Below are positions 1 through 52,361 of a DNA stretch of 64,000 bases, piece by piece. The notes under the pieces are model-generated. The model ran no database searches. It had not been told where the DNA came from and worked only from the letters and a program-made list of their open reading frames with translations. The translations under genes were made by a program, and so were the position numbers. The stretch spans positions 46,036 through 110,035 of IMG/VR virus record IMGVR_UViG_3300045988_151707. One strand, 5' to 3'. How positions within the stretch are numbered: position 1 is the stretch's first letter; each line of letters starts with the position of its first letter. This DNA is from a virus.

Positions 1-741
1 CGGATTGTGCTGTATCAGGGTGTGAAGCAGGGAGAGTTTTTCTTCCTTATCGGGTTTATCGTAATACATATCGGCGTATTTCCGAAAGATGCGGTATGCT
101 GTTTCCTTGTCTATCGACATAAAGAAGCCTGATATATCCATTGTGGCCACAAAGGCTTTCTTTGTGTAACCGTCCGTTACATCACGAATATTCCGCTGTA
201 TCTGCTCGATGGCTGTAGATGCGGAATGCCCGATACGGTTGCCGTGGCTTACATCACCATTGGCTTCGTGGACTTTCTCGCATATCTCGCCAAGCATCGG
301 AGCGACGTAGTGGTGCACGATACGGTCGGTGTAGTTAGCTGCAAACACTTCTCTATATACAGGATAGTCGAGGACAAAACAGATGCTTGTCTGTGGCTGG
401 TAGCCGTTGTCTATTCTGTTTATCAATTCATAAATACGCGACAGGTTGAAATGAAACGATGCTGCTTCGAGCGATGCGTGCTTGTTTTTGTAACAGTCAC
501 TTTCGGCAGCTATCCAGGCGGGCACTTTTTCTGATAAATCGGAGGCCGGCACCACGCTATAGGTGTTGTTCGTGTTGTTGTTGTTCAAGTTGCCATTTCC
601 CATGTTCACATACCAGGCGTTGTTGCCATTGTTGCGGACACAGCTCCAGACGTTGCCGCCCAGGACTTCTGCCCTGTTAATCGAAATAGCTTGCTCACCG
701 CAAGCACAGGGACCTTTATCATTAAACAGTTCTGCCGACAT
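1..741 (-). CDS. DGR reverse transcriptase, N-terminal 247 codons (runs off window edge)
   Basis: Uninterrupted minus-strand frame from ATG 741-739 to position 1. It is absent from the supplied ORF track because it has no stop in the window. The translation ..FVLDYPVYREVFAANYTDRIVHHYV..FVATMDISGFFMSIDKE.. resembles the RT finger/palm motifs of Bordetella phage Brt (..SDFSKFFPSID..). The functional start is uncertain: ATG 741, a Met inside the TR, or GTG 525. Confidence 0.85.
   Translation of the reverse strand, partial: MSAELFNDKGPCACGEQAISINRAEVLGGNVWSCVRNNGNNAWYVNMGNGNLNNNNTNNTYSVVPASDLSEKVPAWIAAESDCYKNKHASLEAASFHFNLSRIYELINRIDNGYQPQTSICFVLDYPVYREVFAANYTDRIVHHYVAPMLGEICEKVHEANGDVSHGNRIGHSASTAIEQIQRNIRDVTDGYTKKAFVATMDISGFFMSIDKETAYRIFRKYADMYYDKPDKEEKLSLLHTLIQHNP
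541..666 (-). repeat. DGR template repeat (TR), 126 bp
   Basis: Aligns without gaps to 1185-1310. All 15 mismatches fall at plus-strand T (coding-strand A) of this copy. The coding strand is AAC-rich (..NNGNN..NLNNNNTNNT..). Confidence 0.92.
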
Positions 742-744
742 AGT

Positions 745-1098
745 TCAAGACTTTTCGGATCTGACATTCTTTATCCTCGCAAGCGAAGATAAAATATTAT
801 CGCACAAAACGTCTATTACAGACGCTTTCTCTTTGCTGCATCCTCCAAGAGCCACTATCAAGTATATCCCGAACTGCAACTCGTATGTCAGTTCTGTAGC
901 TCTTTTATAATAGTCCATTCCACGGACCTGGCGCATAGCGTAGATGAAGAGTAATGCGCCTTGCTTCAGCATAGGATCTATATATGTTCTGCTTATGACC
1001 TTATAAGCTTTGCTGTTGATTTCTATGAGACAATTATTCAGGCGTATCACATCCTGAATAATCGGTGCGTCCAAATGTTTCCTCCCGGATCTGTTCAT
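745..1098 (-). CDS. avd: DGR accessory variability determinant-like protein (small basic helical protein)
   Basis: 117-aa ORF located between the target gene and the TR/RT, which is the canonical avd position. Helical, basic sequence (..YKRATELTYELQFGIYLIVALGG..). The family call rests on position and size. Confidence 0.65.
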   Translation of the reverse strand: MNRSGRKHLDAPIIQDVIRLNNCLIEINSKAYKVISRTYIDPMLKQGALLFIYAMRQVRGMDYYKRATELTYELQFGIYLIVALGGCSKEKASVIDVLCDNILSSLARIKNVRSEKS

Positions 1099-1148
1099 TT
1101 CTATTGTCGCGTATTAAATGTTAATATATTTTAATGCAAAAGTTAATG

Positions 1149-1167
1149 AGCCGTGCTCCGCACGGCT
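1149..1167 (-). promoter_or_regulatory. GC-rich stem-loop just downstream of VR (candidate DGR target-recognition hairpin)
   Basis: agccgtg-ctccg-cacggct: 7-bp stem, 5-nt loop, 17 nt past the GC-rich VR 3' end (GTGGTGCCGGCCTCC). Confidence 0.55.
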
Positions 1168-1175
1168 GAGATAAA

Positions 1176-2594
1176 TCAAAAAGCGGAGGCCGGCACCACG
1201 CTACAGGTGCCGTACGCGTTGCCGTAGTACAAGGTGCCATTACCCATGTGCACATACCAGGCGTAGTTGCCACTGTAGCGGACACAGCTCCAGACGTTGC
1301 CGCCCAGGACGCCAGGTATGCCCCATTTTTCATAACTGTTAAGATAGTTTATCAATCCTGAAATTATGCTTTTGTTTGTCCAGTATGGATATAATTCTTT
1401 CTCTCCTGCCATATACTTCCCTTCAAGTGTTTTGATGTAATACACAGCATGAGAGTCCGCCATATTCCATTCGTAATTTGTACTGGAATTTCCCGGTCTG
1501 CTTATGTATGGGGTAATGATATACCAATAACCGTCAACGGTTATGGCTTCCGCTCCTTTTGCGCCCGGAGAAAGAAGAGGTCGTTCGGCGGAGTTTACTC
1601 CGGTGTCGTTCATGTTTACACCGTTTGTTTTCTGCTGTTCGTACAGCCATTCAGCGTATTCAGGTTTAAAATAATATGCGTTGTTTACTGAATACTTATT
1701 ATTTGTATTGTACATTGCTTTCAAACCTGTGTTCTGGCCGTTTACGAAGAAAAACATATCTTCACCTAACTGAGCCTGTACGCCTGATGAATTTAGGATT
1801 TCCACATCGGTTATTGTGCCTTCTGCTTCAGAAGATGTTATGCCGCTACAGATGGCAAACCTGTGGCGAAGCCATTCATTCTGTACATACATGGATTCAA
1901 GACGTTCGGCGTAATTATCCGCTATCATAGCATTTACATTACCGCAATTCTTTTCCATTATCCAGCGTTGCTTGGTATTACCGCTATAAAGTTCAAGCTT
2001 GTCGTCTTCCGTTACGGTTACGCTCCAGTCGGCTGCGAAGTGACTTCCTGCAGCATGGGTGCCAAGGTTCTCATCTATGGTTCCATGATAGTCTGTTCCT
2101 TCTCCTGTTCCGGTTCTCTGATCGTATTCATAAACGGAATGCTGCATTGCGTTTGATGCTTTGCTTGTAGTACCGGACGTGGCGTAATATTCTCCCTGCC
2201 ACGGCCAATACAATATCGTTCTTATCCCGTTGCACTCCAAAGAGAATCCTACCGGAGGAGCAATGAGTTCGTTGTCGAAGCCGTTGGCCACGCTGCGCTC
2301 GTTCCATTCTTTTACCGTGTAATGCTTCAGGTCTGCATCTACAATCTTGATATGGTCGTTTGTAGCTACGGCTTCCGTCTTGCCTTCTTTTGTTGTGATG
2401 GCAGTGGAGCGTACCGGCAGTATCAGCATTTGCGATTCAAAGGCGTATTCATCCCCTGTCGGAATGGCTGCTATTTTAGCCGGATATTCGGAAAGGATTT
2501 CTCCTACATTTTCTACACCCTTTGCTTCAATGGCTGCCTTTATGGCGGCTTTGCTTTCTTTTAACTTGTTTAGTTTGTCTGCTGTCGTTCCCAT
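1176..2594 (-). CDS. DGR target protein, fibre/receptor-binding-like, VR at C-terminus
   Basis: 472-aa ORF. The N-terminus MGTTADKLNKLKESKAAIKAAIEAKG is fibre-like. C-terminus ..LGGNVWSCVRYSGNYAWYVHMGNGTLYYGNAYGTCSVVPASAF is encoded by the VR. Confidence 0.88.
   Translation of the reverse strand: MGTTADKLNKLKESKAAIKAAIEAKGVENVGEILSEYPAKIAAIPTGDEYAFESQMLILPVRSTAITTKEGKTEAVATNDHIKIVDADLKHYTVKEWNERSVANGFDNELIAPPVGFSLECNGIRTILYWPWQGEYYATSGTTSKASNAMQHSVYEYDQRTGTGEGTDYHGTIDENLGTHAAGSHFAADWSVTVTEDDKLELYSGNTKQRWIMEKNCGNVNAMIADNYAERLESMYVQNEWLRHRFAICSGITSSEAEGTITDVEILNSSGVQAQLGEDMFFFVNGQNTGLKAMYNTNNKYSVNNAYYFKPEYAEWLYEQQKTNGVNMNDTGVNSAERPLLSPGAKGAEAITVDGYWYIITPYISRPGNSSTNYEWNMADSHAVYYIKTLEGKYMAGEKELYPYWTNKSIISGLINYLNSYEKWGIPGVLGGNVWSCVRYSGNYAWYVHMGNGTLYYGNAYGTCSVVPASAF
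1185..1310 (-). repeat. DGR variable repeat (VR), 126 bp
   Basis: Partner of the TR at 541-666. 111/126 identical, and every difference lies opposite a TR adenine. Ends 9 nt before the target gene stop codon. Confidence 0.92.
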
Positions 2595-2845
2595 TATATC
2601 ACCTCCCCGTTTATTTCATCAAGTACTGTGTTTATATCTCCTATAGCATTGCTTAAATCCTGAGAGGTGGCGTACCCTTTCTGCGCAAGAGTTTCTTCTG
2701 TTACATATCCTTCAGGAACTTGCTTTAAAGAAGAATTTACTCCATCAACGAGTTCGTCTATCTTCTTCGTTATAGCGTTCATTTCATCAGACTGCAACAC
2801 CTGCTCTCTGGTGAATGTTTTATTTAATTTCTGAATATCTGCCAT
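2594..2845 (-). CDS. hypothetical coiled-coil protein upstream of DGR target (fibre-associated)
   Basis: 83-aa ORF. Its TAATG stop/start overlaps the target gene. Confidence 0.6.
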   Translation of the reverse strand: MADIQKLNKTFTREQVLQSDEMNAITKKIDELVDGVNSSLKQVPEGYVTEETLAQKGYATSQDLSNAIGDINTVLDEINGEVI

Positions 2846-2851
2846 GGCATA

Positions 2852-2992
2852 TTATTTTAATTTGTTTACATCGAGCTTTCCTTTGTCGAGTACGAGGTAT
2901 TTTTCTTCAGGAGGAGATATATGCTTTTTCTTCTTAATCTCACAGAATCTATACGTCAAAAGCTTAAACGTATTTAGCTTAATAGGTTTCAT
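2852..2992 (-). CDS. small hypothetical protein (46 aa)
   Basis: Read manually: MKPIKLNTFKLL... It has an ATGA overlap with the upstream ORF stop. Below the track size cut-off. Confidence 0.3.
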   Translation of the reverse strand: MKPIKLNTFKLLTYRFCEIKKKKHISPPEEKYLVLDKGKLDVNKLK

Positions 2993-3270
2993 GATCCTGC
3001 CTCCCTTATGGTTGCTTTTGTAACTTTACTTGATACAACAATTTTAATATACTTAGGATAGACCGCATGACAAAAATCTGCATCTATTACGTCCCCCCAC
3101 TTTAGTTCAATATATGAACGCCTATACTTTCCTTCATCACTTCCCCTTTGATAAATCTCCAATGTTCCTCCACTCTCCATTTCGATATGAAGATTATAGT
3201 CTGAGTTTACTTTTGTTTCTGATACAAATGATTTGCCTTCCTCATTAAATAATAATTCTCTCTGTTCCAT
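2989..3270 (-). CDS. hypothetical protein
   Basis: Track ORF trimmed to ATG 3270 (MEQRELLF..). The track start at 3288 is a TTG inside the -7 promoter box. Confidence 0.55.
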   Translation of the reverse strand: MEQRELLFNEEGKSFVSETKVNSDYNLHIEMESGGTLEIYQRGSDEGKYRRSYIELKWGDVIDADFCHAVYPKYIKIVVSSKVTKATIREAGS

Positions 3271-3285
3271 GATATTTGTTTTTAG

Positions 3286-3327
3286 CAAAAATAAGTAACA
3301 TACACAAAAATAAGAAGGACAAAAAAA
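3286..3327 (-). promoter_or_regulatory. conserved promoter architecture, copy 1
   Basis: Minus strand reads TTTTTTTGTCCTTC-N20-TATTTTTG. The -7 box (TAnnTTTG) lies 16 nt upstream of ATG 3270. Confidence 0.6.
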
Positions 3328-3498
3328 CAGCTGTATATATATCGGATAAGACTACTTTTTTAAAAGGGAATCTAATTAAAATTGTCTCACATTTTATATT
3401 TTACACCGTTTTTCAGCACTTTTTCCATTTAATCAGAAATTGTGAAACTCAAACACAACCAAATCAATATTTTTGCAATAAACAAACTACTTATCATT

Positions 3499-4173
3499 AT
3501 GAAAAAAAACTTATTTTTTACATTGACTTTAATTTTAATTATGTGCTTGTTTACTTCTTGCGGAAGTACATATATGGCTGTTTACGATTTAGGTCTTTCT
3601 TCTGTTGAAAGCCCTTCATACTCAAAAGATCCATTTGGTAATTCGGAAATAGTAAAGATTTCTGATGAAGTCCCTTCAAAAAATAAAAAGGCTCAGATTG
3701 TAAACAAATACAGATACACGGATAAATACATTGACATTGTGTGGTGGTACTCTACCACTCAGTTTGAATTTGAGCTGAAAAATGTTTCAGAAAAAACACT
3801 GAAAATAAATTGGGATGATGTAACCTTTATGGACTATACAGGTAATATAAGCCGGATTATGCACAAAGGAGTAAAATACATAGACAAAGATAAAAGTCAG
3901 GGAAGCATAAGCATACCCAAAAACGGAAAGCTAAACGATATTATAGTCCCTACGTCAAATGTATATTTCAGTCAGGGGTTTGGCGTTTATGTTCCTTCTG
4001 AATGGAAACAAAAATCAATCATTCCATGTTTCTACAAGAGTAAGAAAGAAATGCAGAATGATATTGACAATAAAATTTGGATAGGTAAAAAAGTACAAAT
4101 ACTTTTCCCGATAGAGATTGAAGGAAAGAAAAATGACTACAATTTTGAGTTTACAGTTAACGGTACATACTGA
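3499..4173 (+). CDS. lipoprotein, unknown function (opposite strand to neighbours)
   Basis: MKKNLFFTLTLILIMCLFTSCGS: signal peptide plus lipobox Cys. Followed by a strong terminator. Confidence 0.7.
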   Translation: MKKNLFFTLTLILIMCLFTSCGSTYMAVYDLGLSSVESPSYSKDPFGNSEIVKISDEVPSKNKKAQIVNKYRYTDKYIDIVWWYSTTQFEFELKNVSEKTLKINWDDVTFMDYTGNISRIMHKGVKYIDKDKSQGSISIPKNGKLNDIIVPTSNVYFSQGFGVYVPSEWKQKSIIPCFYKSKKEMQNDIDNKIWIGKKVQILFPIEIEGKKNDYNFEFTVNGTY

Positions 4174-8251: not shown

Positions 8252-8827
8252 TTATGCAGAAGCTAGAACCCCGGCCTTTTCAAGCTCGTCAATCAGCTTG
8301 TTCAGTACGGTATGTGCATCTGCCGAACCTGTAGCATCTGTTACATGGGCACCCTGTTTTACCAAACCTGGTGTTCCTGATGCGGCATTTGTATAAGTTG
8401 TATCAGTCCAGTTTACTGTTACATAGGCTTTCCCGCTGCCATCTACTTTTACAGCATAATTCTTGCTGTTTTCAGAATAGCCGGTCTGGATTCCTCCCAA
8501 AGCAGAGTCGCTGGCTTTCGGGAGCACATAGCTTTCACCTCCGCCGCCACCACCGGCTGCTGCGGAATCCTTGATAACCAATGCCTTGACTTTTTTCACC
8601 TCCACATCGCTCAGAAGCCGTACCTTCATGCCGGCAGGTACATTGATTTCAATTACTGAATTTGTGAAATTCACCGTATCCATTGCGACGGGTTCCATGG
8701 TGTCAATAAACTGGTAGATTGAAAGCCTTCCGCTTTTCACACCCTGAATCTGCACCATTGTACGTCCTTCGGAAGTATATTCGGCCACATAGCCTTCAGC
8801 TCCCTTCTTAAAACTGATTTCGTCCAT
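8252..8827 (-). CDS. hypothetical structural protein with Gly6 linker and fibre-like C-terminal segment
   Basis: 191 aa, with ..AAAGGGGGGESYVLPKASDSALGGIQ..PGLVKQGAHVTDATG.. Confidence 0.5.
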   Translation of the reverse strand: MDEISFKKGAEGYVAEYTSEGRTMVQIQGVKSGRLSIYQFIDTMEPVAMDTVNFTNSVIEINVPAGMKVRLLSDVEVKKVKALVIKDSAAAGGGGGGESYVLPKASDSALGGIQTGYSENSKNYAVKVDGSGKAYVTVNWTDTTYTNAASGTPGLVKQGAHVTDATGSADAHTVLNKLIDELEKAGVLASA

Positions 8828-8856
8828 TGTTTGTGTTGTGTTTTTGGTTTGTAACT

Positions 8857-9489
8857 CTATTTATAGGGATTCTCCCGGTATTCCGGAAGAATGAACTGTA
8901 TGTTCACCGCTGCATCGTGCAGCACCTTATGGGCTTGTTCCTCACTTACCTCCATTTCGTCGGTAAACTCGCAGAAGATGTTTCCTACCCAGTCGGAAGC
9001 GCTGTTCAGCCTCTTTATGGCTACGCCGCGACAGCCATTGGTTATAAACAGGGATTTGGCCATCTTGTCCTTCACTTGAGAGTCTATATCCGTATAGCAG
9101 AGAAAAAGGTTTTCGGCCAGCCCTCTGCTGAATACTGCCATTTCGCTCATAGGGAGCCGCTGCACGTTGTCCTTCATGCCCGACACCCCCTTGCGTTTCA
9201 CTTCGAAATAGATGGAAAGGAAGGCTGCGTTACCCAGCGGGTGCGGCTGTACGATGTACACCCTGTCGGCCTTTGTCTCGTAGAGCACCTTCCACAGTTC
9301 GCCGAATACCTTTGCCGTGTTCTCGCTTCGCTTGAAGCTAAGACGTTCGGTTTCCTGCTTGTACCGTTCCAACTTCATATCGTTCATCTTGTCACGATAC
9401 TTCTGCGTCATTTTGTTGTACTGAGTAAAAATCAAGGTACCCACGGAAACTACAGCTGCGCTTATGGCCGTCACCATTTCTGCGTCCAT
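8857..9489 (-). CDS. hypothetical protein with N-terminal TM helix
   Basis: 210-aa ORF. MDAEMVTAISAAVVSVGTLIFTQ is hydrophobic. Confidence 0.55.
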   Translation of the reverse strand: MDAEMVTAISAAVVSVGTLIFTQYNKMTQKYRDKMNDMKLERYKQETERLSFKRSENTAKVFGELWKVLYETKADRVYIVQPHPLGNAAFLSIYFEVKRKGVSGMKDNVQRLPMSEMAVFSRGLAENLFLCYTDIDSQVKDKMAKSLFITNGCRGVAIKRLNSASDWVGNIFCEFTDEMEVSEEQAHKVLHDAAVNIQFILPEYRENPYK

Positions 9490-9513
9490 TCCGTGCCTCC
9501 TTCCGATTTCCCA

Positions 9514-9912
9514 TTATTCCATTTCAGGCGTATTTTTTTCAAAAAGAGCGGCAATAGCTTTTACCACATCGTAGAAACCGCATCCACTAAGGCCGGCAGC
9601 CAGTCCGTAAATAAGCGTTCCCCACCATTGGTATCCTTCGAGCAGAGGAGTAAGCTGAAGCGCCCATGCCAGCACGCAAACCACCATACCTACCGCCACG
9701 CTCACACCGATTTTTGCGAGCTTGCTTCCTGAAATGGCAGGAATTACTTTCAGGATTTGCGTCACGATAGCCGAGATAAGTGCTACGATTCCGGTAAACG
9801 TGCCTAGGTCGATTACGAATCCGGCAGTAGAAGGTTCAGAGGTTACAACGCCCTGTGCGAAAACGGTCACTGCAGAGATCAGCATTGCAAACATTAAAAT
9901 CATCTTTTTCAT
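9514..9912 (-). CDS. multi-TM membrane protein (holin candidate)
   Basis: 132 aa with several hydrophobic segments, in the lysis neighbourhood. Confidence 0.5.
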   Translation of the reverse strand: MKKMILMFAMLISAVTVFAQGVVTSEPSTAGFVIDLGTFTGIVALISAIVTQILKVIPAISGSKLAKIGVSVAVGMVVCVLAWALQLTPLLEGYQWWGTLIYGLAAGLSGCGFYDVVKAIAALFEKNTPEME

Positions 9913-9955
9913 TTTGTCGTCGTTTTTAGTTAAACATTTGGTTTTTGATGCAATA

Positions 9956-9997
9956 CAAAGTTACGAAGAGCACATTGGAGAATGAAGGACAAAAAAA
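9956..9997 (-). promoter_or_regulatory. conserved promoter architecture, copy 2
   Basis: Minus strand reads TTTTTTTGTCCTTC-N20-TAACTTTG, 44 nt upstream of ATG 9912. Confidence 0.6.
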
Positions 9998-10348
9998 CGA
10001 CGGTTTCTCGGAGGACAAAAACAAAAAAGGAGACAATCGCTTGTCTCCTTTCTGTGTGTGTTGATAAAACTCTCATCGAAGAAGGGAATCCCTGTTTTCC
10101 CTATCACGCCGCTAAATTACAAAAAATATTTATATCCGAATAAAACGGATATGTTTTTTTGACAATTGAATGCTTATTTGCACTTTAAAACAATAAAAAG
10201 GGGAATATACCTCTCTTGGAAATATCCCCCTTTATGCATCTAATAATTCATTAAGAATTATAGCTGCAAATATAGCTTTTTATTATGATTGACATCTTGT
10301 TTATGCTTAATTTTTAATATATTTATAGTGTATCTAATAATAATCATT

Positions 10349-11493
10349 ATGAATAAAATTAAGTATGAGCTTGTAACGCATCGTGTACACGGAGGAATGC
10401 TAGCTGTTTTTGTGAAATGTTCACAGTATGGTTCTGTAATAGAACTAGATACTAATGTCAGAGTGTTTAATGACGAATGGAGCAAAGAATTCGGACTTAT
10501 TTCTAAAAATCCAAATGCCGCTAATCTTAACCTGCTAATCAGAAAACTTGTGTATAACCTGGAAGAGATTGAACTAACTTATTCTGGAGAAATTACATTG
10601 TCTAAATTGCATGACATCTATTCAAAACGTGGAGCTTCTGCAGACTGGTATGTAATGTGGGAAAAATCCATGAATGAAAGAGGGTTAAAACCTCGTACTA
10701 TAGAAATACATGAAAATGTTTTGAAGACTATAAAAAAATTCAGAGATTCTTGTCCTGTCACATCATTGACAGAGGATTTCTTCCGCGGATTCATGGGATT
10801 TTTAATTAATTCCGGACTTAAATATTCAACCGTATGTAAGGAAATGCATGTTGTTAAGGCATATTATAATATCGCACGTAAATTGTATGGGAATAAGGTT
10901 CCATCGGATGCATTCGCTTTTTACCATGATCCAAAAGACCTGAACAATACTTATAAACTGAAGTCGTTAAGTGATGATGATATACGTAAGATTGAGAATT
11001 ATGTAGCATCTGGGACGTTATCAGAAAGTAAAAAGCTAACTATCAATCAATTCTTATTCATGAGCTATTCTGGAACTAGGATAAGTGATTTTGCTTCTCT
11101 CAACGAAAAAAACTTCAAGTTGGAAGATGGTCGGATTTGGCTTGAATATAATTCCGTAAAAACAAATACACATGTCAGAATACCTCTTTTTGCTCTGTTT
11201 GATGGAAGAGGTGAGCAAATATATAGCCAGTATCAGAATAGACTTTCAGAGTTTTTTATGTGGGGAACAATTGCAGGTTCAATTCAAGGTTGTCTTCCGC
11301 TCTTAAAGGAAGTGGCCTTAACAAGCATGTAACCGCTCACGTTGCAAGACATACTTGCGCAAGCAGATTAATTAATAGGAATGTTCCTATAACTACAATA
11401 CAGCAAGTAATCGGTCATAGACAAATAAAGACTACGATGATATATGCAAAGATTGACGACAATTCGTTTGTAAGACAATTGAAAGGATTATAA
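10349..11493 (+). pseudogene. tyrosine recombinase (integrase/invertase family) interrupted by a frameshift in a T6 tract
   Basis: Two track ORFs (10289-11332 and 11260-11493). The second carries ..HVTAHVARHTCASRL..GHRQIKTTMIYAKI (HxxR..Y catalytic region). Adding one T to the T-run at 11252-11257 fuses the two frames (..SEFFYVGNNCRFNSRL..). Confidence 0.8.
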
Positions 11494-11516
11494 AAAGCCT
11501 CTTTACGAGGCTTTTT
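11494..11516 (+). terminator. intrinsic terminator after recombinase
   Basis: aaagcctc-tttac-gaggcttt followed by a T-run. Confidence 0.7.
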
Positions 11517-11519
11517 ACA

Positions 11520-12034
11520 AGTTCTGGCGGAACTGATGGGTGGATTTATAAGGAGAAGCCCAGTTTCAGAATCTTTCGACTCCTGTATAAATCAGGGCGT
11601 TTATAATATCAATAAGACCACTTATCCATCCGCAGTAAACTATCCTCCAAGTATTGTCTATGGGCTTCTATTTGTATTCAGTTCATCGAATGGATGGGTT
11701 TCACAATTATCTCATAATTTGGAAAATAATACAATACACACAAGAATAAGAAATGAAAATGGTATTTGGAATGAGTGGAAACAGTTATAATTCTTTCCAT
11801 TCAGTCCATTCTCCATTACTTATTTTTGCCCTTTGATAAGTCGTTCCAGTAAATATCTCTACTAGTATCTGAAATGCACTTTGATCAGATTTCGCAGAAA
11901 GCAGAAAACCAAAATATCCATTTGTGTTTGTTGAGCCATTCTCTGCATAATAATATCCATCTTCAATGTTGTTCGCGTCAACCACTTTGCGTCCACGATA
12001 GGCGAAGGGGAATTGTATTAGTCCCGCCAGGACT
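11520..12034. other. candidate invertible DNA segment (knob-domain switch)
   Basis: Bounded by an imperfect 18-bp inverted repeat: agttctggcggaactgat (11520-11537) and the reverse complement of 12017-12034, agtcctggcgggactaat (15/18 identical). The segment contains two convergent knob-like coding cassettes. Confidence 0.5.
11521..11790 (+). CDS. promoterless alternative knob-domain cassette (silent in this orientation)
   Basis: The frame is open from 11494. It encodes VLAELMGGFIRR...NENGIWNEWKQL, which parallels the C-terminus of the convergent ORF (..ISNGEWTEWKEL). It sits directly after a terminator and has no promoter. Confidence 0.5.
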   Translation, partial: VLAELMGGFIRRSPVSESFDSCINQGVYNINKTTYPSAVNYPPSIVYGLLFVFSSSNGWVSQLSHNLENNTIHTRIRNENGIWNEWKQL

Positions 12035-37843: not shown

Positions 37844-39559
37844 TCAAAAAATAGATAATTGCGCATCTTCGCACGAATTATCGACAAACATTTTCTTGAA
37901 GATGTAATAAAGAACATCCACCACAATGCTGTTGCCGGCCATTTTGTATTGCTGCGTCTTGCTGATTCCTGACTTCTGAATATTATCAATATCTTTTTCG
38001 GAAACCCCCATAAGGCGGAAGCATTCGCGAGGTGTGAGTTTACGGATTCGGTAATTTGCAAAGTATTCAATTATTTTAGGTTGTAAATTACCTCCTGACA
38101 TGGTGTTAATATTTGGACTTATACCTATCGGGTTGTACACTCTACCTCTTTGAGGGTTCTTAAAACCTTTCTCATCAGCCAAATTACCTACTTGAATAAT
38201 TTTAGATTCTACTACGAAATTATTATCCTGCCATCGGCTTGACGTTATAGCCGAACAATTATCTAATATTGCACCTTTATTAAATCCGCGCGGAGATTGA
38301 AAGATTTTTGCTTCTATTCCCTCATAAAGACATGGAGGCTCTCCGCCTGCTGTCAACGTAGGAGAAACTTTGCCGTTATCTTGTACCCTACCTCTTCTCG
38401 TTAAGCTTTCAGGATAAGAAGCATCGAATACCCCACCTGGCGGGATTTCTATATATCCTTTTTTAGTTGCTTGTTTTATAATTAGTGCTTGATTTATAGG
38501 TTCTGAAATAAAACTTAAACAAGAAGAATCCACAGTCGTCTTAATTGTTCCACATATATCAGATACTGTTTGATTATAAGCATCAAGAAATTGAACTTCA
38601 TGACCACTGATTTTTCCACTATCAACCAATGATTGTACTCTTTTATTCCCATATTTTTTTTCTTTTGAGCTAAAACCTGTTGGCACTGATTCCAAAATTC
38701 TTGGACCTTCACCTTTGTTTGTTGTCAAAGTAGGGCACAAGCCGTTTGAATCGAACACGTTTCCATTCATTCCGTGACCTGAAGGGTTTGTGTTTCCTAC
38801 TACATAAACGTAATTATCGCAATCCCTTGAACCAGCATTAGTCAAAATACTCGATGCAATCACATCACCCATTGTAGGCTCAAACTTAAATCCGTTCCCT
38901 TTAGCCTTGTTCTTCTCGTTTCTTGCAAGAAATGTCTTTACAATCTTCTCGCTCAAATAAAAACTTTCATCCACATCTTTTTCAAGAACATCTTTCAGCC
39001 TTTTCTCCAGAGTGAAAGGTTTCGGAAAATGAAACGAAGCCTCGCCCAATATCGACACCATAAAGACACGTTCCCTGTTTTGCGGTACTCCGAAGTCCTT
39101 TGCATTGAGAACTTTCGTATAATTGCTGTAGCCCTGTCCTTCAAGAAATCTGAGCCATTCTTTCAGGTACGGGGTAAACTTCTTCGATACGAGGTTCTTC
39201 ACGTTCTCCATAAGCAGATACTTCGGACGTTTCGCCTCTATAGCCTTACGGCATTCCCAAAGCAGGCTGCTTCGTGTACCGCTACCCTCTGCAAGCCCTT
39301 TCTGCTGTCCGGCTGTGCTTATATCGGTACAAGGAAATGAGTATGTCAGAAAATCGAAGTCAGGAACACTGCTCCAGTCTATCTTTGATATGTCGCCATA
39401 ATTAGGAGTGTCTCCATGTACGGCCATATATGCCTGAATGGCGTACTTGTCAATTTCACTTATTCCAACAACCTCAAAGTCTATTCCCAGTCTGCTTAAA
39501 GCCATAGACTGCGAACCATATCCTGCAAATGCTTCAAAGACTCGTATTTTATTCTTCAT
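37844..39559 (-). CDS. DNA (cytosine-5) methyltransferase with ~300-aa variable region
   Basis: FEAFAGYGS (motif I), FPCTDIS (motif IV), ENVKNL, QNRERVF, and C-terminal ..RECFRLMG..AGNSIVV. Confidence 0.88.
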   Translation of the reverse strand: MKNKIRVFEAFAGYGSQSMALSRLGIDFEVVGISEIDKYAIQAYMAVHGDTPNYGDISKIDWSSVPDFDFLTYSFPCTDISTAGQQKGLAEGSGTRSSLLWECRKAIEAKRPKYLLMENVKNLVSKKFTPYLKEWLRFLEGQGYSNYTKVLNAKDFGVPQNRERVFMVSILGEASFHFPKPFTLEKRLKDVLEKDVDESFYLSEKIVKTFLARNEKNKAKGNGFKFEPTMGDVIASSILTNAGSRDCDNYVYVVGNTNPSGHGMNGNVFDSNGLCPTLTTNKGEGPRILESVPTGFSSKEKKYGNKRVQSLVDSGKISGHEVQFLDAYNQTVSDICGTIKTTVDSSCLSFISEPINQALIIKQATKKGYIEIPPGGVFDASYPESLTRRGRVQDNGKVSPTLTAGGEPPCLYEGIEAKIFQSPRGFNKGAILDNCSAITSSRWQDNNFVVESKIIQVGNLADEKGFKNPQRGRVYNPIGISPNINTMSGGNLQPKIIEYFANYRIRKLTPRECFRLMGVSEKDIDNIQKSGISKTQQYKMAGNSIVVDVLYYIFKKMFVDNSCEDAQLSIF

Positions 39560-51110: not shown

Positions 51111-52361
51111 CTACTCACGCCTAAAGGCATGAGCTTCGGAGATACCAATACCTCCTCTCTTTTCCTGCTTCTTCCTATCATTGCTTTTTAGGACACGAGG
51201 TCGGTCATCCACAAGAGGACAGTCCACAGGCTTGACTTTCCCACGCTCCGTGGGTAGGGCTTTCAAGCCAAATTCCTTGATGTTGCAAGCGGCATTGAAG
51301 TCCCGGTCGTGATGTGTACCACATTCCGGGCATGTCCAACTGCGCTCGCTAAGATTCAATTCTTTGTACACATAGCCGCATTTGCCGCAGGTCTTCGAAC
51401 TTGGGGCAAAGCGGTCTATCTTAATGAGGTTCACGCCATACCAACTGCACTTGTATTCAAGCAAAGTTAGGAACATACCGAAAGAAGCATCTCCTACGGC
51501 TTGTGCCAAATGGTGGTTACGCTGCATACCTTTCACGTTCAAATCTTCCATGCAGATAGTGCGCACTTGGCTGTCGTGCGTGAGTGCATGGGTGATTTTG
51601 TGAAGGCTGTCCTTACGGCTGTTAGCTATGTGTTCCTGTAGCCGGGCTACACGGATGCGTGCCTTGTTGCGGTTGGCAGAACCTTTCTGTTTGCGGCTCA
51701 ACCGCTTTTGTAGCAACTTCAAGCGGTCTAAGCTTCTCTGCAAGTTCTTAGGATTGTCAAACGTGCGTCCGTCAGAACATACGGCAAGCGACTTGATACC
51801 TAAATCAATACCTAAAGCCGTATCTCCCTGTATCGCTGAAGCCGGAAGTTCCTGGATGGTCGTATCAACCAACACGGAAGCAAAGTATCTACCCGAAGGT
51901 GTCATGCTGACGGTAACGGTCTTCACGGTACCTTTGAACCTGCGGTGCAGCACGGCAGGAATGTCTTTCGCCTTGGGGATTGTGATTGTTCCTTTCACAA
52001 AGTCCACGTTGCAATGCTGCGGACACTGGAAACTCTGCTTGCTTTTCCGGCTCTTGAATTTCGGAAAACCGACCGCATGAGTGTCACGGAAGAAGTTTTT
52101 GTAGGCGGTATCAAGGTTGCGGATGGAATTCAGGAGGGCTTGTGAATTTACCTCTGTCAGCCATTGGTTTTCCTTCTTCAGTTCGTTCACCATCCGGTCT
52201 TGAACTTCCTTGTAAGCTACAGACTTCTTATCCTGCTTGTAGGCTTCAATCTTCAGGTTGAGTGCCCAGTTATAGACAAAGCGGCAGCAGCCGAAGGTCT
52301 TGGCAAATAAGACCTTCTGTTCTTCTGTCGGATAGATTCTATATTTGTAGGCTCTCAGCAT
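51111..52361 (-). CDS. tnpB: TnpB (OrfB) RuvC-like RNA-guided nuclease family
   Basis: MLRAYKYRIYPTEEQKVLFAKTFGCCRFVYNWAL..GIDLGIK..CGKCG..CPECGTHHDRDFNAACNI. Confidence 0.9.
   Translation of the reverse strand: MLRAYKYRIYPTEEQKVLFAKTFGCCRFVYNWALNLKIEAYKQDKKSVAYKEVQDRMVNELKKENQWLTEVNSQALLNSIRNLDTAYKNFFRDTHAVGFPKFKSRKSKQSFQCPQHCNVDFVKGTITIPKAKDIPAVLHRRFKGTVKTVTVSMTPSGRYFASVLVDTTIQELPASAIQGDTALGIDLGIKSLAVCSDGRTFDNPKNLQRSLDRLKLLQKRLSRKQKGSANRNKARIRVARLQEHIANSRKDSLHKITHALTHDSQVRTICMEDLNVKGMQRNHHLAQAVGDASFGMFLTLLEYKCSWYGVNLIKIDRFAPSSKTCGKCGYVYKELNLSERSWTCPECGTHHDRDFNAACNIKEFGLKALPTERGKVKPVDCPLVDDRPRVLKSNDRKKQEKRGGIGISEAHAFRRE

What the first reader, a model, noticed from the sequence alone, without database searches (positions are those of the whole stretch)
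1..2594. Diversity-generating retroelement in canonical order (target-VR, avd, TR, RT), only partly visible in the ORF track
The 126-bp segments 541-666 (TR) and 1185-1310 (VR) align without gaps and have 15 mismatches. Every mismatch is a plus-strand T (coding-strand A) in the TR copy, replaced by C, A or G in the VR copy. This is the adenine-specific signature of DGR mutagenic retrohoming. At protein level, TR LGGNVWSCVRNNGNNAWYVNMGNGNLNNNNTNNTYSVVPAS compares with VR LGGNVWSCVRYSGNYAWYVHMGNGTLYYGNAYGTCSVVPAS. The VR forms the C-terminal 42 codons of a 472-aa fibre-like protein. A 117-aa avd-like gene and an RT ORF follow. The RT ORF is not in the supplied track because it leaves the window. 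The element therefore appears to diversify a receptor-binding tip.
Basis: partly seen in the sequence, partly recalled or inferred. Interest (0 to 1): 0.72.

Follow-up and report, generated by a model that had tools for sequence, protein, structure and literature searches.

The report
Active diversity-generating retroelement in a gut phage
This is a real and currently active diversity-generating retroelement in a roughly 100-kb phage of gut Bacteroidales, which rewrites the last 42 codons of a 472-residue phage protein; it belongs to a well-known kind of system but has some lineage-specific details.

Summary
TR 541-666 and VR 1185-1310 (minus strand) align without gaps, and all 15 mismatches fall on TR adenines (p about 5e-10).

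The part of the RT beyond the window was recovered from an identical public contig. It is an intact 490-aa RT with the DGR-type IGNFYSQ motif and an FVDD catalytic box.

The 117-aa "avd-like" protein has no detectable sequence match to Avd. Its confident model (pLDDT 95) is a four-helix bundle, and its best PDB matches are the Avd/23S-IVS family (2gsc, 2rld, 4dwl).

The population test was done with 29 copies of the element from different samples:
- 28 VRs are distinct.
- 420 of 424 TR-VR differences lie at TR adenines.
- Each VR carries its own TR's non-adenine polymorphisms.

A GC-rich hairpin with covarying stems follows the VR.

Two claims remain unproven. The C-type-lectin fold has only weak Lcl_C/DUF1566 signals, and the target model was poor. 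The "fibre / receptor-binding" role rests on gene neighbourhood alone.

Lineage-specific extras:
- The TR lies in frame inside the RT ORF.
- A covariation-supported two-helix RNA element sits directly 5' of the TR (666-717).
- No conserved structure was found 3' of the TR.

Verdict: a new member of a known kind, of moderate interest.

The parts
1176..2594 (-). Target gene, 472 aa; the VR is codons about 429-470, followed by Ala-Phe-stop. The family is found only in metagenome sources and has no Pfam, PHROG or PDB match.
   Evidence: ORF listed. 395 homologues came from Logan, ENA and JGI only. In the family alignment the N-terminal ~420 residues are conserved and the last ~40 are hypervariable around a fixed scaffold WSCVR..AWYV..G.G....V.P.SAF. 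No significant family hits.
1185..1310 (-). Variable region (VR), 126 nt (homology extends to 1180).
   Evidence: Gapless alignment to the TR with 15 mismatches, all at TR adenines. 28 distinct VRs among 29 sampled copies, with variation confined to TR-A columns.
1184..1203 (-). Non-mutagenised 3' end of the VR (TAGCGTGGTGCCGGCCTCCG), ending in a GC-rich 14-mer. It is the IMH-like 3' boundary of homing. TR/VR identity breaks at 1183 (VR C, TR A).
   Evidence: Sequence. No A-to-N variation was seen 3' of VR position 1204. The assignment as IMH is inferred by analogy with BPP-1 (PMC5758913, PMC3240598).
1149..1167 (.). GC-rich inverted repeat AGCCGTGC-GGA-GCACGGCT, starting 16 nt after the end of TR/VR identity (1184) and 8 nt after the stop codon. 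It is the candidate DGR target-recognition hairpin/cruciform and may also act as a terminator stem.
   Evidence: Fold. Relatives at 35-60% Avd identity keep a hairpin at the same place with different, complementary stem sequences and a GGA or GGAT loop. BPP-1 has the matching element: 7-10 bp GC-rich stem, 4-34 bp from the VR (PMC3240598).
745..1098 (-). Accessory gene, 117 aa, basic (pI 9.5). A structural homologue of Avd that is cryptic at the sequence level.
   Evidence: AF2 model with pLDDT 95 and four helices. Nine of the top 12 Foldseek PDB hits, including the top nine, are chains of 2gsc, 2rld (S23/23S-IVS family) and 4dwl (Bordetella Avd), with TM 0.56-0.85 (0.72/0.78 for 4dwl). pI. 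In all 52 related loci with enough flank (45 IMG/VR, 7 others) it sits between an A-biased VR and TR. No sequence-level link to Avd.
666..717 (-). Conserved structured element directly 5' of the TR. Outer helix 707-711/672-676, inner helix 700-705/689-694, loop GGTGA, and a 12-nt 3' internal loop with conserved TAYNYC. It lies inside the first 25 codons of the RT ORF.
   Evidence: 13 distinct sequences: 97.2% of cells paired against 24-48% in slid controls; 7 of 11 pairs show compensatory changes, and all 5 outer pairs covary. Covariance model R1 hits once in the window (E 3e-16). It does not hit the BPP-1, BS-TP1, Bacteroides phage F2, MT835523 or Magia DGR loci. No Rfam match.
541..666 (-). 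Template region (TR), 126 nt with 36 adenines (14 Asn codons). It lies in frame inside the RT ORF.
   Evidence: Nearly invariant across samples: 9 TR variants, and wherever a TR differs from the others by a base other than A, its own VR carries the same base. No codon can mutate to a stop. 4^36 DNA variants and about 3.6e20 peptide variants are possible.
1..741 (-). 5' part (247 codons) of the reverse transcriptase ORF. The ATG at 741 lies 3 nt after the avd stop. The RT domain begins at about residue 78. The remaining 243 codons lie beyond the window.
   Evidence: Translation. phrog_1423 reverse transcriptase, E 9e-20. The full 490-aa ORF in L003, identical over the shared region, has an RVT_1 hit, IGNFYSQ and FVDD. 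PDB hits are to group II intron, retron and Cas1-fused RTs and to a 328-aa RT, 8ub7.

Best explanation
Window 1-2594 holds a complete and currently active diversity-generating retroelement of a roughly 100-110 kb integrase-carrying phage of gut Bacteroidales. Only the 3' half of the RT gene falls outside the window.

Proposed mechanism:
1. The cassette target-avd-TR-RT is transcribed from the minus strand.
2. An RNA containing the TR (541-666) is copied into cDNA by the RT together with a divergent, basic, four-helix-bundle Avd homologue. Random nucleotides are incorporated opposite template adenines.
3. The cDNA replaces the VR (1185-1310) at the 3' end of the 472-aa target gene. The GC-rich 3' end of the VR and the hairpin at 1149-1167 help direct this step.
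4. Up to about 1e20 variants of a 42-residue C-terminal surface result, on a scaffold that resembles Lcl_C/DUF1566 (the 'CLec2' type of DGR variable domain). This most likely retunes ligand or receptor binding of a virion protein.

Shown here: the repeat pair and its adenine specificity; the intact RT with DGR motifs; the Avd-like fold; the conserved VR-proximal hairpin; natural diversification restricted to TR adenines; and transfer of TR polymorphisms to the cognate VR.

Inferred: the biochemical steps (by analogy with Bordetella phage BPP-1), the lectin-like fold, the virion location and receptor-binding role of the target, and the role of the conserved RNA element 5' of the TR.
For: - Repeat pair: TR/VR are gapless with 15 of 15 mismatches at TR-A, p 5e-10.
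- Population data: ten public copies found through the identical avd protein show VRs that differ at A columns while the TRs stay nearly constant. Across 29 copies there are 28 distinct VRs and 424 mismatches, 420 of them at A (G 257, T 120, C 43). 32 of the 33 columns where every TR has A are variable. At the columns where TRs differ by a non-A base, each VR carries its own TR's base.
- More distant relatives: 52 of 52 loci with enough flank (Avd 35-99% identical) have the same avd-TR / VR arrangement with A-biased mismatches.
- RT: 490 aa, RVT_1, IGNFYSQ, FVDD. The closest annotated relatives are RTs of DGR-bearing Bacteroides phages BS-TP1, F1, F2 and F4 at 31-34% identity.
- Avd fold: pLDDT 95; the top PDB hits are 2gsc, 2rld and 4dwl; pI 9.5, as for Bordetella Avd.
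- Hairpin after the VR is conserved with stem covariation, matching the functional element of BPP-1 (PMC3240598).
- VR domain: Lcl_C (PF07603) is hit by 16 of 43 family members over the VR (best E 0.005). The best PDB match of the C-terminal profile is the Lcl C-terminal domain 8q4e, E 0.01, aligned to the very C-terminus.
- Phage context: tape-measure gene, amidase, integrase and a tail-fibre-like PHROG hit nearby. Relatives occur in IMG/VR contigs of 100-120 kb and in Bacteroidales and Paludibacteraceae MAGs.
Against: - The accessory protein shows no sequence relationship to Avd in Pfam, NCBIfam, PDB phmmer/hmmsearch or hhalign. Four-helix bundles are common, and the Foldseek E-values are only 8e-3 to 7e-2.
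- The catalytic box is FVDD rather than the usual YxDD.
- The hairpin loop is GGA or GGAT, not the GRNA consensus reported for phage DGRs.
- The lectin-like fold is not demonstrated. The target model had mean pLDDT 53 and gave no significant structural hits. The Lcl_C signals are below Pfam's threshold.
- No structured spacer RNA was found in the 165 nt downstream of the TR, where Bordetella's essential Sp RNA lies. Priming of cDNA synthesis therefore cannot simply be transferred from the Bordetella model.
- The variation seen is between samples. Within-population heterogeneity was not measured.
Confidence: 0.95

Rival explanations
1. The cassette is a genuine DGR, but the diversified 472-aa protein is not a tail-fibre or receptor-binding tip. 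It could be another surface protein, for example a capsid or tail decoration adhesin that binds mucus or other glycans, or a non-virion protein.
For: - The target has no similarity to any tail-fibre family, or to anything in 50,697 GenBank phage records, PHROGs, Pfam or PDB.
- It lies upstream of the tape-measure gene rather than in the usual distal-tail position. It sits next to small ORFs of unknown function and near the lysis genes.
- The model shows an N-terminal helical segment followed by beta-rich domains, but with low confidence.
Against: - A gene two positions downstream of the RT matches PHROG 1807 'tail fiber protein' (E 8.5e-10), so tail-associated genes are adjacent.
- In characterised phage DGRs the target is typically the receptor-binding protein (BPP-1 Mtd, annotated).
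- There is no signal peptide or lipobox, which fits a virion component.
Confidence: 0.3
2. The element is a decayed or dormant DGR. The TR/VR differences are fossils of past activity, and the between-sample variation is ordinary divergence.
For: - Only assembled consensus sequences were compared. No within-sample read data were examined.
- The catalytic box is FVDD, not YxDD.
- One copy (L047) has a shorter RT reading frame of 356 aa.
Against: - 28 of 29 copies differ in the VR, while avd is 97.7-100% identical to the window at the nucleotide level and the TR 97.6-100% identical, in the ten copies compared; across the 29 copies only 9 TR variants occur.
- 420 of 424 differences are at TR adenines.
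- VRs carry the non-A polymorphisms of their own TRs, so transfer occurred after the TRs diverged.
- The RT ORF is intact with FVDD and IGN[FYL]YSQ in nine of the ten sampled relatives whose RT lies fully within the fetched sequence; the tenth (L047) keeps both motifs but has a shortened frame.
- The FVDD box is conserved across the whole lineage, so it is not a recent lesion.
Confidence: 0.03
3. The repeat pair is not retroelement-driven. It would be a duplicated coding segment diverging by chance or by conventional recombination and selection.
For: None beyond the bare existence of a direct repeat.
Against: - Adenine-only mismatches, p 5e-10 in the window alone and 420 of 424 across copies.
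- An adjacent RT with DGR motifs, and an Avd-fold protein.
- The same architecture in every relative examined.
Confidence: 0.01

Closest known systems
Bordetella phage BPP-1 DGR (mtd-avd-TR-brt), the prototype
   Same: - Same gene order and strand logic.
- VR at the 3' end of the target, of similar length (126 versus 134 nt).
- Adenine-specific TR-to-VR differences.
- A basic ~120-aa four-helix-bundle accessory protein (TM 0.72-0.78 to 4dwl; pI 9.5 for both).
- A GC-rich inverted repeat shortly after the VR.
   Different: - The RT is 490 aa against 328 aa, only distantly related (E 3e-4 to a 328-aa PDB RT), and has FVDD.
- Avd similarity is undetectable by sequence.
- The TR is embedded in frame in the RT ORF, instead of being separated from brt by a non-coding structured spacer.
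- No conserved structure was detected 3' of the TR.
- A conserved two-helix element lies 5' of the TR instead and is absent from BPP-1.
- The hairpin loop is GGA(T), not GAAA/GRNA.
- The target scaffold looks like Lcl_C/DUF1566, not Mtd.
Legionella-type DGRs with 'CLec2' variable regions (DUF1566/DUF823/Fib_succ_major; category d of Wu et al. 2018, PMC5758913)
   Same: - The VR peptide pattern W-S-x-V-R ... A-W-x-V ... G-x-G ... V-x-P-x-S-A-F gives weak Lcl_C (formerly DUF1566) matches in 16 of 43 family members.
- It aligns end to end with the C-terminus of the Legionella Lcl domain 8q4e.
- Wu et al. likewise describe these matches as weak and mixed.
- The architecture is avd-TR-RT (their type B).
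   Different: - The target here is a phage protein with a ~380-residue unannotated N-terminal part, not a bacterial surface lipoprotein.
- All matches are below the Pfam gathering threshold.
- The fold was not confirmed.
DGRs of cultured Bacteroides phages (BS-TP1 PQ571274; B. uniformis phages F1/F2/F4, PMC8143477)
   Same: - They are the closest annotated RTs, at 31-34% identity.
- The host order is the same (Bacteroidales relatives).
- BS-TP1 has a similar genome size (111.7 kb), and its RT ORF also reads through a TR-like segment, since the tblastn match starts at query residue 29.
- An Avd-type four-helix-bundle gene lies upstream of the RT.
   Different: - The target proteins differ: 2187 aa in BS-TP1, and the 472-aa target has no match in any GenBank phage.
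- The Avd proteins are unrelated at the sequence level.
- The 5'-TR structured element is absent from the BS-TP1 and F2 loci.
DiGReF 'group 3' DGR architecture (TR overlaps the annotated RT ORF; Schillinger et al. 2012, PMC3521204)
   Same: The TR lies inside the 5' end of the RT ORF.
   Different: Here the in-frame arrangement is shown to be conserved across a lineage down to 35% Avd identity. Most members have no ATG between the TR and RT motif 1, and a covarying RNA element sits in the leader codons. The paper only classifies the overlap.

Membership tests
Diversity-generating retroelement (DGR) | A template repeat and a variable repeat that are near-identical and differ almost only at template adenines | tested here: met
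   15 of 15 mismatches at TR-A in the window, p 5.4e-10. 420 of 424 across 29 copies.
Diversity-generating retroelement (DGR) | A reverse transcriptase of the DGR type adjacent to the TR (RT motifs 1-7, [I/L/V]GxxxSQ in motif 4, catalytic xxDD) | tested here: met
   The 490-aa ORF in the identical contig L003 has an RVT_1 hit, IGNFYSQ and FVDD. phrog_1423 RT at E 9e-20 on the window part. F replaces the usual Y of YxDD throughout the lineage. No phylogenetic placement in the DGR RT clade was made.
Diversity-generating retroelement (DGR) | The VR lies in the coding sequence (usually the 3' end) of a target gene, and mutable adenines sit at codon positions 1-2 (AAY codons) so that no stops arise | tested here: met
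   The VR is codons ~429-470 of 472. There are 14 Asn codons, and no codon can become a stop. 14 of the 15 changes are at codon positions 1 or 2.
Diversity-generating retroelement (DGR) | Evidence of ongoing mutagenic retrohoming (VR variable, TR constant, in natural populations) | tested here: met
   28 distinct VRs in 29 copies. TRs are nearly invariant, and each VR carries its own TR's non-A polymorphisms. This is between samples only; within-sample read data were not available.
Diversity-generating retroelement (DGR) | Target-site signals: a GC-rich IMH at the 3' end of the VR and a GC-rich hairpin/cruciform a few bp downstream | tested here: met
   GC-rich invariant 3' end at 1184-1197, with TR/VR divergence from 1183. 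An 8-bp GC-rich hairpin at 1149-1167 starts 16 nt after the last TR/VR-identical base and is conserved with covarying stems in relatives. Its loop is GGA or GGAT rather than GRNA.
Diversity-generating retroelement (DGR) | Structured spacer RNA 3' of the TR that primes cDNA synthesis (shown for Bordetella; predicted for many DGRs) | tested here: not met
   RNAalifold on 13 diverse relatives found no conserved helix in the 165 nt after the TR, which is RT-coding. Up/down duplex energies fell within the shuffled range. This feature is not part of the usual definition of a DGR, and a negative alifold result on coding sequence is weak evidence.
Avd (accessory variability determinant; Pfam 23S_rRNA_IVP / S23 family) | Sequence membership in the family | tested here: not met
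   No hit in Pfam, NCBIfam, PHROGs or PDB, nor by hhalign to Bordetella or BS-TP1 Avd. Only 1 of 19 family members touches PF05635, at E 0.023.
Avd (accessory variability determinant; Pfam 23S_rRNA_IVP / S23 family) | A ~110-130 aa basic four-helix bundle encoded immediately upstream of the TR-RT | tested here: met
   pLDDT 95 with four helices. The best PDB matches are 2gsc, 2rld and 4dwl, with TM up to 0.83. pI 9.48. The position is conserved in 52 of 52 related loci. The pentameric assembly and RT binding could not be tested.
C-type-lectin-fold DGR variable proteins (CLec2 / Lcl_C = DUF1566 type) | The variable residues sit on a C-type-lectin-like (Lcl_C/DUF1566) scaffold | tested here: inconclusive
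   Sub-threshold Lcl_C hits over the VR in 16 of 43 members (best E 0.005; cut-off 34.9 bits). The C-terminal profile's best PDB hit is the Lcl C-terminal domain 8q4e, E 0.01. The AF2 model of the target was poor (pLDDT 53), and the Foldseek results were not significant.
Phage tail fibre / receptor-binding protein | Homology to known fibre or RBP families, or location in the distal tail module | tested here: inconclusive
   No homology. The neighbourhood holds a tail-fibre-like PHROG hit and a tape-measure gene, but the target lies upstream of the tape measure.

The most novel reading that the evidence does not exclude
In this Bacteroidales-phage lineage the DGR RNA may be organised differently from the Bordetella paradigm.
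- The TR is part of the RT coding sequence.
- The only conserved structured RNA is a two-helix element immediately 5' of the TR (666-717).
- No spacer-like structure exists 3' of the TR.

Priming, processivity or termination of adenine-mutagenic cDNA synthesis, or coupling of RT translation to template use, would then rely on an upstream element and on a sequence-cryptic Avd. That would make this a distinct mechanistic variant of mutagenic retrohoming.
Probability: 0.25. Interest if true: 0.6.

Novelty: new member of a known kind. Interest (0 to 1): 0.38.

Why it matters
DGRs are the main known natural system of targeted protein hypermutation and are especially common in gut phages. One more example is not surprising in itself.

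This one is useful for four reasons:
- It is abundant. The avd protein was indexed in 62 blocks of public assemblies, and there are about 25 near-identical IMG/VR contigs. It is also demonstrably active in nature.
- Its target family (about 400 homologues) and its accessory protein are invisible to standard annotation. Profile-based DGR finders that require an Avd hit, or lectin-domain annotation, would under-describe it.
- It offers a natural series of 28 VR variants on a fixed scaffold.
- It carries a covariation-supported RNA element next to the TR, in a position that differs from the structurally characterised Bordetella DGR RNA. This gives a concrete, testable handle on how conserved the cis-priming and stop mechanism really is.

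Tried and rejected
- Nucleotide search (megablast) of 1-3300 against GenBank phages: no match.
- tblastn of the target against the same phages: no match.
- Pfam, NCBIfam and PHROGs on the target and on avd: nothing significant.
- PDB sequence searches with single sequences and with profiles of the target and avd families: nothing for avd, nothing for the full target.
- hhalign of the avd family profile against Bordetella Avd and BS-TP1 Avd: probabilities below 1%.
- AF2 of the full target with a 43-sequence alignment: mean pLDDT 53. The Foldseek searches against PDB and BFVD were therefore uninformative. Lcl and DUF1566 entries appear among the non-significant hits, and I give them no weight.
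- A third homologue search with the C-terminal profile found only fragments of the same family. None had Pfam annotation, so no bridge to annotated DUF1566 proteins was obtained.
- Search for the avd gene in GTDB species genomes with exact peptides: nothing. A looser family pattern found only distant relatives in Bacteroidales and Paludibacteraceae MAGs. The host is therefore inferred at order level only.
- Rfam at gathering and at permissive thresholds: no family.
- Search for a second VR in the window: none.
- Search for a conserved spacer structure 3' of the TR, and for an upstream/downstream duplex analogous to the Bordetella stop duplex: none beyond the shuffled expectation.
- The idea that the conserved 'leader peptide' KG..AC..QA.S of the RT ORF is a protein motif was dropped. 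RNA pairing explains the conservation.
- The idea that BS-TP1 (111.7 kb) is the same phage was rejected. It has a different target, and the RT is only 34% identical.

Full report
**1. Observation**

All genes in 1-2594 are on the minus strand.

- The 126-nt segments 541-666 and 1185-1310 align without gaps.
- On the coding strand, all 15 differences have A in the 541-666 copy and G, T or C in the 1185-1310 copy.
- With 36 A among 126 template positions, the probability that 15 of 15 fall on A is 5.4e-10.
- Fourteen of the 15 changes hit codon positions 1 or 2.
- The quoted peptides are correct.
- Homology continues 5 nt further (536-540 / 1180-1184). It includes one more TR-A / VR-C difference at 539/1183, which is the same C in every VR printed for the ten public copies.
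- No further VR-like copy exists in the 64 kb.

**2. The RT**

The ORF starting at ATG 741 (3 nt after the avd stop) runs off the window after 247 codons. It matches PHROG 1423 'reverse transcriptase' at E 9e-20.

An exact-sequence look-up of the 117-aa protein found it in 62 blocks of public assemblies, and ten loci were fetched. L003 (ENA ERZ28657847, contig of 109,934 bp) is identical to the window over every segment compared, including the VR.

In L003 the RT ORF is 490 aa. It has an RVT_1 hit, the DGR-type motif IGNFYSQ and the catalytic box FVDD. F in place of Y is conserved in all relatives examined.

PDB relatives are group II intron, retron and Cas1-fused RTs, plus a 328-aa 'Reverse transcriptase' (8ub7, E 3e-4) that I take to be Bordetella bRT from its length; this is my own inference. 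The closest annotated phage RTs, at 31-34% identity, belong to DGR-bearing Bacteroides phages BS-TP1, F1, F2 and F4.

**3. Population test**

The ten loci from different samples have nearly identical TRs but different VRs. The differences sit at TR-adenine columns.

I pooled these with IMG/VR copies, giving 29 TR/VR pairs of this element:

| Measure | Result |
|---|---|
| Distinct VRs | 28 of 29 (the window equals L003) |
| TR-VR mismatches | 424 |
| Mismatches at TR adenines | 420 (A to G 257, A to T 120, A to C 43) |
| Columns with A in every TR that vary in VRs | 32 of 33 |

At the columns where TRs differ from one another by a base other than A, each VR carries the base of its own TR (for example T/T in 8 copies and C/C in 21). 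Information has therefore flowed from TR to VR since the TRs diverged. This is the signature of active mutagenic retrohoming, although it was measured between samples rather than within one.

The template can specify 4^36 DNA variants and about 3.6e20 peptide variants, and none of its codons can become a stop.

**4. Accessory protein**

The 117-aa ORF (745-1098) has no hit in:
- Pfam, PHROGs or NCBIfam;
- PDB by sequence;
- Pfam or PDB even as a 19-member family profile;
- hhalign against Bordetella Avd or the BS-TP1 'four helix bundle protein'.

An exhaustive HMMER scan of 1.8 billion representatives found only 32 relatives.

Its AF2 model is confident (pLDDT 95, pTM 0.86) and shows four long helices. 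The top nine Foldseek PDB hits, and eleven of the top twelve, are three entries: 2gsc and 2rld (S23 / 23S-IVS family) and 4dwl (Bordetella Avd). TM-scores are 0.56-0.85; for 4dwl they are 0.72/0.78, with rmsd 2.3 Å over 107 columns. The protein is basic (pI 9.48, against 9.55 for Bordetella Avd). [quoted passage not shown]

In 45 of 45 IMG/VR loci and 7 of 7 further loci (six from MAGs and IMG/VR locus L058) with enough flank, a relative of this protein (35-99% identity) sits between an A-biased VR and TR.

I file it as a structural Avd homologue. Sequence membership failed; fold, size, charge and position all fit.

**5. Target-site signals**

The last 20 nt of the VR (1184-1203, ending in GGTGCCGGCCTCCG) never vary. 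Starting 16 nt after the last TR/VR-identical base (1184), and 8 nt past the stop codon, lies AGCCGTGC-GGA-GCACGGCT (1149-1167).

Relatives keep a hairpin at the same position with different but complementary stems and a GGA or GGAT loop, for example:
- GTCGTGC-GGAT-GCACGAC
- GGGCGTGC-GGAT-GCACGCCC
- ACAATGC-GGA-GCATTGT

This corresponds to the hairpin/cruciform required for BPP-1 retrohoming: a 7-10 bp GC-rich stem, 4-34 bp from the VR. The published loop consensus there is GRNA (PMC3240598), so the loop here is a variant.

**6. The target**

The 472-aa protein has about 395 homologues, all from metagenome sources and none with a Pfam domain. In the family alignment the first ~420 residues are well conserved. 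The last ~40 are hypervariable around fixed scaffold residues (WSCVR, AWYV, G.G, V.P.SAF). This is the expected footprint of a DGR across a whole family.

Evidence on the fold:
- 16 of 43 members give sub-threshold Lcl_C (PF07603, formerly DUF1566) matches over the VR.
- A profile of the C-terminal ~100 residues has the Legionella Lcl C-terminal domain 8q4e as its best PDB hit (E 0.01), aligned to the last residue, with both sequences ending in AF.
- DUF1566-type VRs are the 'CLec2 / category d' DGR targets of Wu et al., who also describe these matches as weak.
- The AF2 model of the whole protein was poor (pLDDT 53), and the structural searches were not significant.

The lectin-like fold therefore remains plausible but unproven.

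Nothing supports 'fibre-like' by homology. The context is tail-associated: PHROG 1807 'tail fiber protein' two genes downstream of the RT, then a 1956-2196-aa tape-measure gene. An amidase and an integrase lie on the other side.

**7. Genome context**

- Contigs carrying the element cluster at 100-112 kb, and IMG/VR lists them as viral.
- The window also carries an integrase, a C5 methylase, a TnpB-like gene and a DnaA_N-domain protein.
- Distant relatives of the accessory gene occur in Bacteroidales and Paludibacteraceae MAGs.
- L002 carries the same avd-TR-RT (about 98% identical) and a 473-aa gene in the target position, but among different neighbouring genes. The cassette therefore moves between phage backbones.

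**8. Lineage-specific features**

(a) The TR lies in frame inside the RT ORF. In relatives down to 35% Avd identity, the open frame always starts upstream of or at the TR. Most have no ATG between the TR and RT motif 1. Overlap of the TR with the annotated RT ORF is a known architecture class (DiGReF group 3, PMC3521204).

(b) The apparent conservation of the leader codons is explained by RNA structure. A two-helix element sits directly 5' of the TR (window 666-717), with 97% of cells paired against 24-48% in slid controls. Seven of 11 pairs show compensatory changes, and all five outer pairs covary. A covariance model finds it once in the window (E 3e-16). The model finds it in relatives but not in the BPP-1, BS-TP1, F2, MT835523 or Magia DGR loci. 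Rfam has no such family.

(c) No conserved structure was found in the 165 nt 3' of the TR. No upstream/downstream duplex exceeded the shuffled expectation. In Bordetella, by contrast, the essential priming, Avd-binding and stop elements lie in the spacer 3' of the TR and pair with the 20 nt upstream of it (bioRxiv 10.1101/2023.10.23.563531).

The role of the 5' element is unknown. It could be a stop or roadblock, an Avd/RT binding site, or a regulator of RT translation. In one subgroup the RT start codon lies in or at the hairpin.

**9. Verdict**

This is a canonical-order, intact and naturally active DGR of a gut Bacteroidales phage. It is a new member of a well-known kind. Interest is moderate. 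It comes mainly from the sequence-cryptic Avd, the unannotated but widespread target family, and the covariation-supported RNA element on the 'wrong' side of the TR.

Noticed in passing
window 666-717 (minus strand): A conserved two-helix RNA/DNA element sits immediately 5' of the TR and shows strong covariation (7 of 11 pairs compensatory). It is specific to this DGR lineage, is absent from Rfam, and is absent from the five other DGR loci searched.
   Followed up: yes
window 541-741 (minus strand); L038-L065: The TR is in frame inside the RT ORF throughout the lineage, usually with no ATG between the TR and RT motif 1. The RT is therefore probably made with a TR-encoded N-terminal extension. 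In one subgroup the start codon lies in or beside the 5'-TR hairpin.
   Followed up: partly
window about 376-540 (minus strand) and relatives: No conserved secondary structure was detected in the 165 nt downstream of the TR, where the Bordetella DGR has its essential structured spacer RNA.
   Followed up: partly
L002 (Logan DRR828822_7227) 8501-11830: The same avd-TR-RT (about 98% nt identity), next to a 473-aa gene in the target position, sits among different neighbouring genes, including a different tape-measure gene. This suggests the DGR cassette is exchanged between phage backbones.
   Followed up: partly
window 1202 and about 1289 (VR), both in AGC Ser codons: Two template adenines are never changed in any of 28 VRs, while 32 of the 33 columns where every TR has A vary. 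Substitutions are biased to G (61%), then T (29%) and C (10%).
   Followed up: partly
window 51111-52361 (minus strand): A 416-aa ORF carries HTH_OrfB_IS605, OrfB_IS605 and Cas12f1-like TNB domains. It is a TnpB-type gene inside the phage genome.
   Followed up: no
window 3442-4173 (plus strand): A 243-aa ORF lies on the opposite strand to all its neighbours. It has a hydrophobic N-terminus ending in a lipobox-like FTSC, so it may be a phage-encoded lipoprotein. It has no family match.
   Followed up: no
window 37844-39559 (minus strand); 10289-11332 (plus strand): A C-5 cytosine DNA methylase (E 7e-70), and a tyrosine integrase about 10 kb from the DGR. The corresponding gene in the related loci carries a Phage_integrase hit. 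Together they suggest a temperate lifestyle for a roughly 100-110 kb phage.
   Followed up: no
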